Shown: one piece after another, positions 54,341 through 58,748 of the stretch
Layout of the letters: each line of letters starts with the position of its first letter
Position numbering within the stretch: position 1 is the first letter of the stretch
NCBI RefSeq assembly: GCF_030013205.1
Contig: NZ_CP122648.1
DNA length: 64,000 bases
Source of the DNA: Escherichia coli
GTDB lineage: Bacteria > Pseudomonadota > Gammaproteobacteria > Enterobacterales > Enterobacteriaceae
Direction: 5' to 3' (one strand)
Notes under the pieces: generated by a model
What the model saw: the letters and a program-made list of their open reading frames with translations, nothing else
Told to the model about the DNA's origin: nothing
The model's database searches: none
Program-made: the position numbers and the translations under genes

Positions 54341-55015
54341 ATGAAAACAATCCATGACATCCGGCGGTCTAACGCCAGAAAACTGAGAGATGGTGTTGGC
54401 GGGAATTCTTCCTTTGCCACTATGATTGATCGCGAGCCAACCCAGACCAGCAGGTTTATGGGAGATGGTGCTACTAAAAATATCGGTGACAGCATGGCAC
54501 GACACATCGAAAAATGTTTCGACCTGCCTGTCGGATGGCTCGATCAAGAACACCAGACAACGAACATCACAAAAAAACCTGATGTTTCAATCACTAATAA
54601 ACAAATCACATTAGTCCCTGTCATATCATGGGTACAGGCCGGAGCATGGAAAGAAGTTGGATATTCTGAGGTTGATTTGAGCACAGCAGAAACGTATCCC
54701 TGCCCTGTACCCTGTGGGGAAATGACTTATATCCTGCGGGTGATAGGTGATTCAATGATTGATGAGTACCGCCCGGGAGACATGATTTTTGTCGATCCTG
54801 AAGTACCTGCCTGCCACGGTGACGACGTTATTGCATTGATGCACGATACAGGTGAAACCACCTTCAAAAGGTTGATAGAAGATGGGACACAGCGTTATCT
54901 CAAAGCGTTAAACCCAAACTGGCCTGAGCCTTACATTAAGATCAACGGTAATTGCTCTATAATTGGAACTGTGATTTTCTCAGGAAAACCAAGAAGATAC
55001 AAAATCAAAGCCTAA
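54341..55015 (+). CDS. CI-like phage repressor (N-terminal HTH, C-terminal LexA/S24-type autopeptidase)
   Basis: 224-aa ORF with the S24 serine motif (VIGDSM) and a downstream lysine (TFKRL). Confidence 0.85.
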   Translation: MKTIHDIRRSNARKLRDGVGGNSSFATMIDREPTQTSRFMGDGATKNIGDSMARHIEKCFDLPVGWLDQEHQTTNITKKPDVSITNKQITLVPVISWVQAGAWKEVGYSEVDLSTAETYPCPVPCGEMTYILRVIGDSMIDEYRPGDMIFVDPEVPACHGDDVIALMHDTGETTFKRLIEDGTQRYLKALNPNWPEPYIKINGNCSIIGTVIFSGKPRRYKIKA

Positions 55016-55026
55016 TCAATGTTTAT

Positions 55027-55050
55027 GAACCTGCTTCGGCAGGTTTTTTT
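55027..55050 (+). terminator. intrinsic terminator after cI
   Basis: gaacctgc-ttcg-gcaggtt followed by ttttttt. Confidence 0.75.
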
Positions 55051-55054
55051 ATAC

Positions 55055-55095
55055 TTGACAATGTACCTTTGAGATACATAATGTACCCAAGAGAA
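55055..55095 (+). promoter_or_regulatory. pL-like sigma70 promoter with OL-like operator half-sites
   Basis: TTGACA (55055-55060), 16 bp, CATAAT (55077-55082); two AATGTACC motifs overlap it, matching the TGTACC half-site of the OR palindromes. Confidence 0.55.
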
Positions 55096-55229
55096 ACAAC
55101 AAACAGGCAGGACCCCCACGAAGTATCCGCCTGGGGCATATGAAGTTCAGGATGATTCGTTAGCAACAAAAAAGCGCCCTACAGGACGCTTAGCTCTTTA
55201 ACAATCTGGATATCCACAACAGTAGTAAT

Positions 55230-55721
55230 CTACAGATTGCCGTTAAGTTTTCTGGACAACTCCTCAATGGATGGAGGCGATACGTAATCCGGATTTTTAT
55301 TCATCAGAAACTTATTTTCACAGTGGAGGCACCTGCTTTTATGAAAAAGCTCATCTTCGCTAACCGGGAATGGTTGAAGTATCGATACTATCTTTTGTCC
55401 AAAACATTTTGGGCAAAGATGCATGGTTATGCTGCCACCGTTCACGATTACCTCCTTCGAGTATACAAAAGTACCCGACTCAAGTTGGTTAAGGATATAG
55501 CCTTCCGTCTGAGCCTCAAAGTTTTCGAATTCTGCAATTTTAGCTTTGAGAGAAGCATTTATTTCTTGATAAGAGCCCACCAGTTCAACGAGAGACACGC
55601 ATTCGCGCTGAATAGACGCAAGCTTTGAGTTCAGCTCACCAATAGCCGCATTTACTTCAGCTTGAGTTTTTGCCTCGTTCATTAGTTTTGCAATCTGGGC
55701 TGTTTCACGAATAGCCGTCAT
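55230..55721 (-). CDS. prophage moron: coiled-coil protein with C-terminal C4 zinc ribbon, function unknown
   Basis: 163 aa from MTAIRETAQIAKLMNEAKTQAEVNAAIGELNSKL…; CPKCF…(18 aa)…CLHCE; AT-rich; start uncertain (alternative GTG at about 55754). Confidence 0.55.
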   Translation of the reverse strand: MTAIRETAQIAKLMNEAKTQAEVNAAIGELNSKLASIQRECVSLVELVGSYQEINASLKAKIAEFENFEAQTEGYILNQLESGTFVYSKEVIVNGGSITMHLCPKCFGQKIVSILQPFPVSEDELFHKSRCLHCENKFLMNKNPDYVSPPSIEELSRKLNGNL

Positions 55722-55789
55722 TGCTGCCGTTAATTCAGCGATCACATTGAATACTCTTATTGTTGTTGGGGATATCCAGATTAACCGAA

Positions 55790-56214
55790 TCCTTGTTGTT
55801 GGGGAATAACCAGGTCCACCTCGCCTGATGTGGCTAAAAGCAGGCACATAACAGCTAAGTATTTTCAACCAGAGAGAATCCTTAGCGTTGTGGTGAATGC
55901 GGCTCAGCGCACGCGGGTTAAGGTTGAGGCTGACAGTCGACCTTCTGTGGATACCCACCCGCCTGGTGTGCAACCTTCGCCAGGCACCGGGAGGCACCCG
56001 GCACCACAACTTTATGCTGTGTGTAGTCCTGGCGGTACCAGCTTGTACCCTTGCTTCCGGCTGGTACCGTCCTTTTTACAAAACAGAGAAGAGCATCACC
56101 GGACGACGGGCTCATAACCCAATCCATCCGGGCGGCGGCCACCACAGGTGTTCTTCTCTGTTTTGTGGAGAAACTAATCGGCCTTGCAGGGTCGATATGA
56201 TGAGGAGCAGCAAA
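55790..56214 (+). other. GC-rich, highly structured non-coding region (candidate structured RNA or recombination remnant)
   Basis: Nested inverted repeats: gcctgg/ccaggc, ccggg/cccgg, ggtaccagc/gctggtacc (9 bp), and caaaacagagaaga…tcttctctgttttg (about 15-17 bp); ORFs here lack plausible starts. Confidence 0.4.
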
Positions 56215-57467: not shown

Positions 57468-57594
57468 TTTCATTACTGCAAATGCCCCTGCGGGGGCATT
57501 TATGGAAACGTAATTAACTCAATAATCACCGGATGGTGAGGGCTTCCTTTTACCAGAATTCAGCGCGGTGCAGTGCATATACGTGGAGAACAAA

Positions 57595-58656
57595 ATGTCA
57601 TTTATTAAAACTTTTTCCGGGAAGCATTTTTATTATGACAAGATAAATAAAGACGACATCGATATTAACGATATCGCGGTTTCCCTTTCAAATATCTGTC
57701 GCTTTGCCGGTCATCTTTCGCACTTCTACAGCGTCGCCCAACATGCGGTTCTTTGCAGCCAGCTGGTGCCGCAGGAATTTGCTTTTGAAGCGTTAATGCA
57801 TGATGCAACAGAAGCGTATTGCCAGGACATTCCCGCACCACTGAAACGCCTTCTTCCTGACTATAAACGGATGGAAGAAAAAATAGACGCCGTAATCCGT
57901 GAGAAATACGGGTTATCAACTCAGACAAAGGCAAAGCATCTTGCCATGATAAAGGCCATTCTCCGTGCTGCAGAACGCGACTGGAAGTGGCTGGAAAAAG
58001 CGCCTGTCATCAAGATACCAGCGGTCAGAAACAAGCGAGTCAGATGGCTGGAAAAGGAGGAAGCAAAACGCCTTATTGATGAGTGCCCCGAACCACTGAA
58101 ATCTGTCGTCAAGTTTGCGCTGGCAACTGGTCTGAGAAAGTCGAACATCATAAATCTGGAATGGCAACAAATCGACATGCAGCGACGAGTTGCCTGGGTG
58201 AATCCAGAAGAGAGCAAATCAAACCGCGCCATTGGTGTGGCGCTGAACGATACCGCCTGTAAAGTGTTGCGTGATCAAATAGGCAAGCATCACAAATGGG
58301 TGTTTGTACATACCAAGGCGGCTAAGCGAGCAGATGGAACATCAACGCCTGCGGTCAGGAAGATGCGCATCGACAGCAAGACATCATGGCTATCAGCTTG
58401 TCGTCGTGCAGGAATTGAAGATTTCCGTTTCCATGACCTCAGACACACCTGGGCAAGCTGGCTGATCCAGTCAGGCGTCCCATTATCTGTGCTTCAGGAA
58501 ATGGGCGGATGGGAGTCCATAGAAATGGTTCGTAGGTATGCTCACCTTGCGCCTAATCATTTGACAGAGCATGCAAGGAAAATAGACGACATTTTTGGTG
58601 ATAATGTCCCAAATATGTCCCACTGTGGAATTATGGAGGATATAAAGAAGGCGTAA
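57595..58656 (+). CDS. chimeric ORF: HD-domain phosphohydrolase N-terminus (YfdR-like) fused in frame to a tyrosine-recombinase catalytic domain (IntD-like)
   Basis: N-terminal 115 aa [15 protein letters not shown]…AGHLSHFY…[14 protein letters not shown] (HD motifs); the rest (…[19 protein letters not shown]…[10 protein letters not shown]…VRRYAHL…) is an integrase C-terminal domain with R/H-x-x-R/Y residues; ends 15 bp from argU. Confidence 0.8.
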
Positions 58657-58671
58657 CTGATTGAATTGTAA

Positions 58672-58748
58672 TGGCGCGCCCTGCAGGATTCGAACCTGCG
58701 GCCCACGACTTAGAAGGTCGTTGCTCTATCCAACTGAGCTAAGGGCGC
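58672..58748 (-). tRNA. argU: tRNA-Arg (anticodon UCU), argU
   Basis: Reverse complement reads GCGCCCTTAGCTCAGTTGGATAGAGCAACGACCTTCTAAGTCGTGGGCCGCAGGTTCGAATCCTGCAGGGCGCGCCA (77 nt, encoded CCA). Confidence 0.95.

What the first reader, a model, noticed from the sequence alone, without database searches (positions are those of the whole stretch)
55230..55721. Uncharacterised prophage moron: coiled-coil plus C4 zinc-ribbon protein antisense to the early-left transcript
Between cI and the early-left genes, on the opposite strand, lies a low-GC ORF encoding about 163 aa with an N-terminal heptad-rich coiled coil and a C-terminal CPKC…(18 aa)…CLHC zinc ribbon. It sits where lambdoid phages carry exclusion or defence morons (the rexAB / sieB position), and is flanked by a terminator-like hairpin and a pair of TTGTTGTTGGGGA direct repeats (55756-55800) in its upstream region. 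I could not assign it to a known family.
Basis: partly seen in the sequence, partly recalled or inferred. Interest (0 to 1): 0.6.

Follow-up and report, generated by a model that had tools for sequence, protein, structure and literature searches.

The report
Rip1-like prophage anti-phage defence gene
A small gene in a decayed E. coli prophage encodes a distant relative of Rip1, a recently described phage-defence protein that binds the ring-shaped small terminase of an invading phage; it is an ordinary new family member, but it sits in a swappable cassette shared with two uncharacterised gene families.

Summary
The ORF is real and is the coding strand. Its true start is the GTG at 55745 (171 aa), not the ATG at 55721. 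All four cysteines are invariant across homologues. The protein belongs to phrog_1244 and to the Rip1 ("ring interacting pore 1") family. A family profile matches PDB 9oox (phage HK446 Rip1 bound to phage T6 small terminase) at E = 4.9e-27, and an AlphaFold model (pLDDT 89.8) finds only that entry in the PDB. The founding Rip1, HK620/HK630 HkaP, JBD30 gp30 and this gene all lie antisense to their neighbours in early or late phage operons. Here the gene lies inside the pL operon of a roughly 7-kb prophage remnant at tRNA-Arg beside fimZ. The most likely function is sensing an invader's small-terminase ring and stopping the infection, probably through a templated pore; the sensing and pore steps are inferred from homology.

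The parts
55230..55745 (-). Rip1-family gene, 171 aa, GTG start; N-terminal helices (residues 2-23, 28-79) plus a C-terminal beta/zinc-ribbon domain (C111, C114, C139, C142)
   Evidence: PGAP coordinates; phrog_1244, 2.4e-58; invariant Cys; homology to PDB 9oox Rip1; model, pLDDT 89.8; codon-position substitution pattern
55754..55758 (-). Shine-Dalgarno-like AAGAG, 8 nt upstream of the GTG start
   Evidence: Read from the sequence; GAG or GGA is conserved at this position in the aligned leaders
55746..55855 (-). Conserved ~110-nt leader of the cassette.
   Evidence: near-identical in loci whose proteins are 61-75% identical; 1422 E. coli genomes; shared with other cargo; chance estimate; pair counts
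55172..55191 (-). Intrinsic terminator of the Rip1-like gene
   Evidence: conserved in 3 of 4 orthologous loci
55192..55204 (+). boxA-type sequence AGCTCTTTAACAA on the early-left (pL) strand, about 100 nt downstream of pL; it forms the conserved 3' flank of the cassette
   Evidence: the same motif lies inside the annotated nutL and nutR of HK620, and on the opposite strand just after the stop codon in L007, L009 and L010. One search shows it is conserved
55203..55228 (.). Left arm of a 26-nt inverted repeat (85% complementary) that brackets the ORF; the right arm is 55757-55782
   Evidence: I1; both arms are conserved in orthologous loci
55757..55782 (.). Right arm of the inverted repeat, inside the leader
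   Evidence: I1
55055..55098 (+). Candidate early-left promoter pL (TTGACA-16-CATAAT, 55055-55082), overlapped by two operator-like repeats (55060-55078, 55080-55098) related to those between cI and cro
   Evidence: (family D1)
54341..55015 (+). cI-type repressor (ymfK, LexA/S24 family), convergent with the Rip1-like gene; its terminator is at 55027-55046
55323..55628 (+). Overlapping antisense ORF (101 aa); judged not to be a gene
   Evidence: substitutions run position 3 > 1 > 2 in the minus frame in 11 of 11 comparisons. The antisense product is less conserved and is interrupted by 2-6 stops in orthologues

Best explanation
The gene encodes a Rip1-family anti-phage defence protein carried as a moron by a lambdoid (CPS-53/e14-like) prophage remnant.

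Proposed mechanism:
1. In the lysogen, cI keeps pL silent. The gene is transcribed from its own leader, antisense to the early-left operon, and yields a soluble 171-aa protein with no transmembrane segment.
2. A foreign tailed phage reaches its late phase and assembles its small-terminase (TerS) ring. The C-terminal zinc-ribbon/beta domains of about a dozen protomers dock on that ring.
3. This brings the N-terminal helices together into a pore-like assembly, which collapses the membrane barrier or otherwise blocks packaging. The infection aborts before progeny are released.
4. The hypervariable insert between the two zinc knuckles, and the C-terminal tail, probably set which terminases are recognised.

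Shown here: family membership, fold, invariant cysteines, coding strand, and the moron/antisense layout.
Taken from others' work on the HK446 homologue: TerS sensing, the 12-on-11 stoichiometry and the pore idea.
Inferred: that this 27%-identical allele does the same; its target range; silencing by convergent pL transcription during induction.
For: - **Family libraries:** phrog_1244 hit over the full length at 2.4e-58.
- **Sequence homology to Rip1:** a profile of 23 homologues matches PDB 9oox chain L, 'ring interacting pore 1 (Rip1)', at E = 4.9e-27 over profile positions 4-155, including both CxxC pairs. The single sequence gives E = 2.7e-7. BLASTP gives 27% identity over 148 aa.
- **Fold:** the AlphaFold2 model has pLDDT 89.8. 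Its only significant PDB matches are 9oox_L and 9oox_M, 'HK446 Rip1 in complex with phage T6 small terminase' (probability 1.00, TM 0.55/0.71); the next hit has E = 0.2.
- **Hallmark residues:** Q46, L66, V94, Y95, C111, C114, I122, L123, C139 and C142 are invariant, including in HK446 Rip1.
- **Layout:** HK446 Rip1, HK620/HK630 HkaP, JBD30 gp30 and three enterobacterial orthologues all lie antisense to their neighbours.
[quoted passage not shown] Rip1 senses the small terminase subunit (bioRxiv 10.64898/2026.04.30.721860).
- **No TM segment:** the family has a mildly hydrophobic N-terminal helix rich in small residues, so any pore would need oligomerisation.
- **Variation:** it is concentrated in the inter-knuckle insert and the C-terminal tail.
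- **Retention:** the gene is present in 649 of 5426 complete E. coli genomes, 644 of them with at least 80% of the ORF. In the identical locus it is called as an intact CDS among several pseudogenes.
Against: - Identity to the one characterised member is only 27%, so target specificity and even the effector step could differ.
- I could not read the primary Rip1 paper. The pore mechanism reaches me only through a PDB molecule name and a conference summary that says 'suggesting'.
- There is no hit in PADLOC 2.0, Pfam or NCBIfam, so no curated model supports the assignment.
- No sigma-70 promoter passes the scan on the minus strand, so expression in the lysogen is assumed, not shown.
- No multimer modelling or terminase docking was possible with these tools.
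Confidence: 0.75

Rival explanations
1. It has the Rip1 fold and binds the terminase ring, but it protects by sequestering or capping TerS and so blocking DNA packaging. No membrane pore forms and the host cell does not die.
For: No transmembrane segment in any of the four family members analysed. Other prophage systems, such as TerI, block packaging by targeting terminase (listing).
Against: The depositors named the molecule 'ring interacting pore', which implies experimental support I could not read. The conserved N-terminal helix rich in small residues has no obvious role in simple capping.
Confidence: 0.15
2. It is a SieB-type or Rex-type superinfection exclusion membrane protein, as the HK620 annotation of HkaP ('putative superinfection exclusion protein') implies.
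For: It occupies the slot between N and cIII, antisense to them, in HK620, HK630 and HK446. From my own knowledge, not checked here, this is where lambda and P22 carry sieB. The HK620 record's note says so.
Against: No Pfam hit at all, so none to the SieB, RexA or RexB families. No transmembrane segment. The only solved homologue is a soluble cap on a terminase ring.
Confidence: 0.04
3. It is a zinc-ribbon nucleic-acid-binding regulator of the prophage (for example of pL or of the nut site next to it), not a defence protein.
For: Zinc ribbons often bind nucleic acids. The gene is bracketed by a conserved inverted repeat with a GGATATCC core and abuts a boxA.
Against: The same flanks surround unrelated cargo genes, so they are not sites specific to this protein. 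The homologue's solved partner is a protein ring. Homologues occur in Mu-like Pseudomonas phages in a quite different position, next to the terminase genes.
Confidence: 0.04
4. The plus-strand ORF 55323-55628 is the real gene and the minus-strand ORF is a shadow.
For: The antisense frame stays open for 93-165 codons in all homologues examined.
Against: Substitutions run position 3 > 1 > 2 in the minus frame in 11 of 11 comparisons. The antisense product is always less conserved (0.28-0.65 against 0.43-0.75) and carries 2-6 stops. The minus-strand product has 3546 family clusters and a solved homologue.
Confidence: 0.01

Closest known systems
Rip1 (ring interacting pore 1) of Escherichia phage HK446, gene HK446_037, PDB 9oox
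   Same: About the same length (164 vs 171 aa). Same architecture: N-terminal helices plus a beta/zinc-ribbon domain. The four Cys, the VY motif and the ILQ motif are shared. The folds match. It is a prophage moron lying antisense inside the pL operon.
   Different: Only 27% identical. The inter-knuckle insert and C-terminal tail differ. HK446 Rip1 has a longer Gly/Ala-rich N-terminus. HK446 Rip1 follows an N gene, whereas here there is no N between pL and the gene. The leader and flank module found here is absent from HK446, HK620 and JBD30. The target range of this allele is unknown.
HkaP of phages HK620, HK630 and HK629; gp30 of JBD30; orf25 of D3112 and MP38; homologues in DMS3-like phages
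   Same: Same family (28-30% identity). All lie on the strand opposite to their neighbours.
   Different: None is annotated with a tested function. In the Pseudomonas Mu-like phages the gene sits between a DNA-binding protein gene and the large terminase gene, not in the immunity region.
SieB (lambda, P22) and RexAB (lambda)
   Same: Genomic niche: prophage-expressed exclusion genes next to the immunity region. By my recollection sieB is also antisense to pL. All abort a superinfecting phage.
   Different: No sequence or domain similarity. SieB and RexB are integral membrane proteins, whereas this protein has no TM segment.
Other terminase-sensing defences: TerI (small terminase complex), Avs1-3 (large terminase)
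   Same: They use a conserved packaging protein as the infection signal.
   Different: Unrelated proteins. Avs are large STAND NTPases with separate effector domains. This is a single 171-aa protein in which the sensor and the presumed effector are one small polypeptide.

Membership tests
Rip1 family (phrog_1244) | Significant full-length sequence similarity to HK446 Rip1 and its relatives | tested here: met
   phrog_1244 at 2.4e-58; profile vs 9oox_L E = 4.9e-27; single sequence E = 2.7e-7; BLASTP 27% identity over 148 aa
Rip1 family (phrog_1244) | Fold: long N-terminal helices followed by a small beta domain with a C4 zinc ribbon | tested here: met
   AF2 model pLDDT 89.8; Foldseek vs PDB top hits 9oox_L/M, probability 1.00, TM up to 0.55/0.71, and no other hit below E = 0.2
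Rip1 family (phrog_1244) | Four invariant cysteines (two CxxC knuckles) plus the VY and ILQ motifs | tested here: met
   Invariant in 23 homologues and in the alignment that includes HK446 Rip1
Rip1 family (phrog_1244) | Carried by temperate phages or prophages as a stand-alone gene opposed to the flanking operon | tested here: met
Rip1 family (phrog_1244) | Binds the small-terminase ring of an invading phage as a ~12-mer | not testable with these tools
   Known for HK446 Rip1 with T6 TerS only. No multimer prediction or binding assay is available here
Rip1 family (phrog_1244) | Protects against phage, by pore formation or abortive infection | not testable with these tools
   Reported for the founding member only at second hand. 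No TM segment is predicted, so a pore would have to be assembly-dependent
SieB superinfection exclusion family | Homology to SieB; integral membrane protein | tested here: not met
   No Pfam family reached E <= 0.001. The highest 18-residue Kyte-Doolittle mean is about 0.8, with no TM segment
RexA/RexB | Two-gene system co-transcribed with cI; RexB is a polytopic membrane protein | tested here: not met
   Single gene on the strand opposite to cI; no Pfam or PADLOC hit
Known defence systems in PADLOC-DB 2.0 | Match to any model of a catalogued defence protein | tested here: not met
   Only a spurious 8.7-bit hit. The library dates from 2023, before Rip1 was described

The most novel reading that the evidence does not exclude
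The Rip1-like gene occupies one slot of a previously unrecognised, exchangeable prophage cassette.

The cassette has a ~110-nt leader that is nearly invariant over most of its length. It contains two CCCCAACAACAA elements and two interleaved helices. It also has a 3' module made of an inverted-repeat arm, a boxA on the opposing strand, and a terminator.

In different prophages the same leader drives three unrelated cargos:
- Rip1-like genes.
- A phrog_5286-type protein of ~145 aa.
- A Pro-rich micropeptide plus a 2-TM protein (phrog_6315).

If so, the two other cargos are new single-gene or two-gene anti-phage systems. The leader would be a regulatory RNA or promoter module that ties their expression to the lysogenic state, for example through silencing by antitermination-competent convergent transcription from pL or pR.
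Probability: 0.3. Interest if true: 0.6.

Novelty: new member of a known kind. Interest (0 to 1): 0.4.

Why it matters
It gives a functional assignment to a gene labelled 'hypothetical protein' in every record I inspected. About 12% of complete E. coli genomes carry it, including O157:H7. The wider family is very large, with 3546 clusters at 50% identity.

It shows that a defence gene is still called as an intact CDS in a ~7-kb prophage remnant where several neighbouring genes are pseudogenes and no packaging gene is annotated. That fits domestication by the host.

The allelic series behind one constant leader, 41 alleles with variation focused between the zinc knuckles, is a ready-made resource for mapping how Rip1 proteins recognise different terminase rings. 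The same leader also points to two further uncharacterised candidate defence gene families.

Tried and rejected
- **Curated libraries:** Pfam, PADLOC and NCBIfam gave nothing significant.
- **Literature:** searches for HkaP, 'ring interacting pore', 'ring-interacting', HK446, and Rip1 combined with other terms did not find the primary Rip1 paper. Only two secondary mentions turned up. The 'Rip1' of PMC12557735 is a name collision ('Random Inhibitors of Phage infection', 51-aa random peptides) and is unrelated.
- **Promoter for the minus strand:** the consensus scan found none. By eye I found only a conserved ..TAAT.. that becomes TATAAT in the Rac/Qin-type leader variant. The promoter is left unresolved.
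- **5'-3' pairing of the inverted repeat as an RNA structure:** the diverged E. coli locus L009 changes one arm without compensation. Not supported.
- **boxB hairpin after boxA:** the pL leader folds no better than shuffles, z = -0.61.
- **Leader helices:** 99% of cells pair, but only two compensatory changes exist and both are in one locus. RNAalifold recovers only one of the two helices. Suggestive, not established.
- **Rfam:** nothing on the leader itself.
- **Plus-strand ORF:** rejected.

Full report
**1. The observation**

The window holds a minus-strand ORF ending at 55230. Three lines of evidence place the true start at the GTG at 55745, giving 171 aa:
- RefSeq/PGAP annotates the identical locus in E. 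coli K_EC180 with exactly those bounds (WP_000559922.1).
- The phrog_1244 profile match starts at profile position 9, which implies eight missing residues.
- The N-terminus MIAELTAAM is conserved in homologues down to 41% identity.

An AAGAG Shine-Dalgarno sequence lies 8 nt upstream. The zinc knuckles are CPKC and CLHC, separated by 24 residues rather than 18. The 13-nt direct repeat is exact and occurs twice, at 55760-55772 and 55793-55805, against 0.07 expected by chance. The terminator-like hairpin is at 55172-55191 on the minus strand. GC content is 42.8% against 50.9% for the window.

**2. Which strand codes**

Openness alone therefore cannot decide the question. Codon-aligned comparisons of the window gene with 11 diverged alleles can. 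Substitutions always run position 3 > position 1 > position 2 in the minus-strand frame. The antisense product is always less conserved than the sense product and carries 2-6 stops. The minus strand is the gene. My inference is that the open antisense frame is a by-product of the sense strand using few TTA, CTA and TCA codons.

**3. Setting**

The region is a remnant of a CPS-53/e14-like lambdoid prophage, about 7 kb long, inserted at tRNA-Arg next to fimZ (all except where stated):
- Truncated integrase at 57910-58656, and tRNA-Arg at about 58672-58748.
- yfdQ and yfdP on the plus strand.
- cI (ymfK, 54341-55015, +), cro (ymfT, -) and ymfL (-).
- Beyond these, only fragments of replication and tail-fibre-assembly genes.

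No packaging gene is annotated in the remnant. A strong promoter-like site, TTGACA-16-CATAAT, lies at 55055-55082 (+), just after the cI terminator. It is overlapped by two 19-nt repeats related to those in the cI-cro intergenic region. This is the likely pL/OL. The ORF therefore lies inside the early-left transcription unit, antisense to it and convergent with cI.

**4. What the protein is**

Pfam, PADLOC (2023) and NCBIfam give nothing significant. PHROGs gives a full-length match to phrog_1244, a family of unknown function, at 2.4e-58.

Homologues are very numerous: 3546 clusters at 50% identity with E <= 0.001, nearly all matching over their full length of 145-180 aa. All named ones are 'hypothetical protein'. 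In isolated phages they include:
- HK620, HK630 and HK629 HkaP.
- Klebsiella phages.
- ECOR prophages PhiR49_1 and PhiR29_2, which are 100% identical.
- The Mu-like Pseudomonas phages DMS3, JBD30 (gp30), D3112 and MP38 (orf25).

Across 23 sequences reaching 28% identity, the invariant residues are the four cysteines (C111, C114, C139, C142), G91, V94, Y95, L123 and P125.

A profile of this alignment matches one solved structure: PDB 9oox, molecule name 'ring interacting pore 1 (Rip1)'. The match is E = 4.9e-27 over nearly the whole length. The single sequence also reaches it at E = 2.7e-7, and BLASTP gives 27% identity over 148 aa. An AlphaFold2 model built on the alignment has mean pLDDT 89.8, with helices at 2-23 and 28-79 followed by six strands. 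Searched against the PDB, the model finds only 9oox chains L and M (probability 1.00); the next hit has E = 0.2. The entry is titled 'Cryo-EM structure of the Escherichia phage HK446 Rip1 in complex with the Enterobacteria phage T6 small terminase', released 2026-02-04. A direct alignment that includes HK446 Rip1 keeps Q46, L66, V94, Y95, the four Cys, I122 and L123 invariant.

**5. What is known about Rip1**

I could not find the primary paper in the library. Two secondary sources agree with the PDB record:
[quoted passage not shown] - A 2026 preprint lists Rip1 among the defences that sense the small terminase subunit (10.64898/2026.04.30.721860).

A different 'Rip1' in PMC12557735 is an unrelated name collision.

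**6. Layout across the family**

The founding Rip1 (HK446_037) lies between N and the cIII side of the pL operon, on the opposite strand. Its record describes it as similar to HK620 hkaP. HkaP has the same position in HK620, where the record's note reads 'putative superinfection exclusion protein', and in HK630. JBD30 gp30 lies antisense between a DNA-binding protein gene and the large terminase gene.

Enterobacterial orthologues occupy other early-operon slots, always antisense to their neighbours:
- Between xis and cI in Citrobacter.
- Between cro and the replication genes in Salmonella.
- Next to dicB in a Rac/Qin-like E. coli prophage.

From memory, lambda and P22 sieB occupy the same slot and orientation. 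There is no homology to SieB or Rex, and no transmembrane segment.

**7. Mechanism proposed**

- **Shown here:** family membership, fold, invariant zinc ligands, coding strand and moron layout.
- **Taken from the homologue:** sensing of the small-terminase ring by a dodecameric cap, and a pore-type effector.
- **Inferred for this allele:** the soluble protein is made in the lysogen. When an invading phage assembles its TerS ring, the C-terminal zinc-ribbon domains dock on it and the N-terminal helices are gathered into a pore or cap that aborts the infection.

Two features fit this. No family member has a classical TM segment, but all have a mildly hydrophobic N-terminal helix rich in small residues, so a pore would need templated oligomerisation. 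Sequence variation is concentrated in the insert between the knuckles (residues 127-138) and in the C-terminal tail, while the N-terminal helix and the knuckles are the most conserved parts. That is the pattern expected if the C-terminal domain sets target specificity in an arms race.

The main rival is that the cap blocks packaging without forming a pore. I cannot exclude it.

The annotated remnant has no packaging genes, so self-triggering by this element is not an issue. In intact relatives, convergent pL transcription on induction might silence the gene; that is speculation.

**8.

Aligning four loci chosen by protein homology shows that the non-coding flanks are better conserved than the gene. 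About 110 nt upstream (window 55746-55855) and about 45 nt downstream are nearly identical, while the proteins are 61-75% identical and the wider contexts are unrelated.

The upstream block contains both CCCCAACAACAA repeats. The downstream block contains one arm of a 26-nt inverted repeat (55203-55228, paired with 55757-55782), then GTTAAAGAGC, then the terminator.

Read on the pL strand, GCTCTTTAACAA (55192-55204) is a boxA. The same motif lies inside the annotated nutL and nutR of HK620, and in all three orthologous loci it sits on the opposing strand just after the stop codon. The conservation of the 3' flank is therefore explained at least partly by a nut-type site of the early operon. 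No convincing boxB hairpin follows it.

The leader occurs in 1422 of 5426 complete E. coli genomes, against 649 for the ORF at >=90% nucleotide identity. Among roughly 145 IMG/VR prophage loci that carry the leader, the cargo is:
- A Rip1-like gene in about 84 loci (41 distinct alleles, down to about 43% identity).
- A ~145-aa protein of the phrog_5286 type in about 40 loci.
- A two-gene unit in about 24 loci: a 26-37-aa Pro-rich peptide plus a ~150-aa protein with two hydrophobic segments (phrog_6315; a weak PADLOC '2TM effector' hit).

Neither alternative cargo has a solved homologue by sequence.

The leader also holds two interleaved helices, GCCTG/CAGGC and CCAC/GTGG, with a loop of variable length (13-17 nt). 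They pair in 99% of cells, but only two compensatory changes exist and both are in one locus. This is suggestive only. I could not locate the promoter.

**9. Verdict**

The gene can now be assigned to the Rip1 family, so it is a new and diverged member of a known kind rather than something new. The cassette architecture and its alternative cargos are the part that may be new.

Noticed in passing
window 55746-55855 (-); loci L013, L014, L016, L038, L046, L057, L080-L088 and others: The ~110-nt leader in front of the Rip1-like gene also precedes two unrelated cargos in other prophages. One is a ~145-aa phrog_5286-type protein. The other is a 26-37-aa Pro-rich micropeptide followed by a ~150-aa protein with two hydrophobic segments (phrog_6315). 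In the loci inspected in detail these cassettes sit next to and convergent with a cI-type repressor gene. Both are candidate uncharacterised defence or exclusion genes.
   Followed up: partly
window 55192-55204 (+), with pL at 55055-55082: A boxA-type sequence (AGCTCTTTAACAA) lies about 100 nt downstream of the candidate pL. It is identical in core to the boxA inside HK620's annotated nutL and nutR. No N gene lies between pL and the Rip1-like gene, and no clear boxB hairpin follows (fold z = -0.61). How this phage type antiterminates is open.
   Followed up: partly
window 55816-55845 (sense on the minus strand): Two interleaved helices, GCCTG/CAGGC and CCAC/GTGG, with pseudoknot topology and a loop of 13-17 nt, lie in the conserved leader. 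They pair in 99% of 24 distinct leaders. One locus (L092) has compensatory changes in both helices. The evidence is too thin to call this a structure, and it is unknown which strand's RNA would use it.
   Followed up: partly
window 55857-56080 (+) and hairpin 56078-56166: A near-threshold Rfam match to sRNA STnc100 (42.4 bits, gathering score 47, E about 1e-7) lies in the GC-rich (55%) stretch between the cassette and yfdP. It is followed by an 18-bp near-perfect inverted repeat. PGAP calls a frameshifted hypothetical pseudogene here (55890-56200). It may be a structured leader RNA of the early-left operon rather than a dead gene.
   Followed up: partly
window 51696-51899 (-) and 52745-52944 (-): Two Rfam IS009 matches (108 and 134 bits) lie around a class I SAM-dependent methyltransferase gene (51979-52647). 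They overlap the stretches annotated as tail-fibre-assembly pseudogene fragments.
   Followed up: no
window 57568-58656 (+): One long ORF fuses an HD-domain (YfdR-like) N-terminus to the C-terminal part of a site-specific integrase. PGAP annotates only a truncated integrase (57910-58656). This is a deletion scar, and it shows the prophage is a non-excisable remnant at tRNA-Arg beside fimZ.
   Followed up: no
L003 (Pseudomonas phage JBD30) 3971-4465: In Mu-like Pseudomonas phages the Rip1 homologue (gp30; orf25 in D3112 and MP38) sits antisense between a 'DNA binding protein' gene (gp29, possibly the small terminase) and the large terminase gene. A terminase-sensing protein encoded right beside the phage's own terminase genes raises the question of how self-triggering is avoided.
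   Followed up: no
window 55230-55745 and homologous loci: The frame antisense to the Rip1-like gene is open for 93-165 codons in all seven loci checked, including the Pseudomonas one, although it is not under coding selection. This is a trap for ORF-based annotation of this family.
   Followed up: yes
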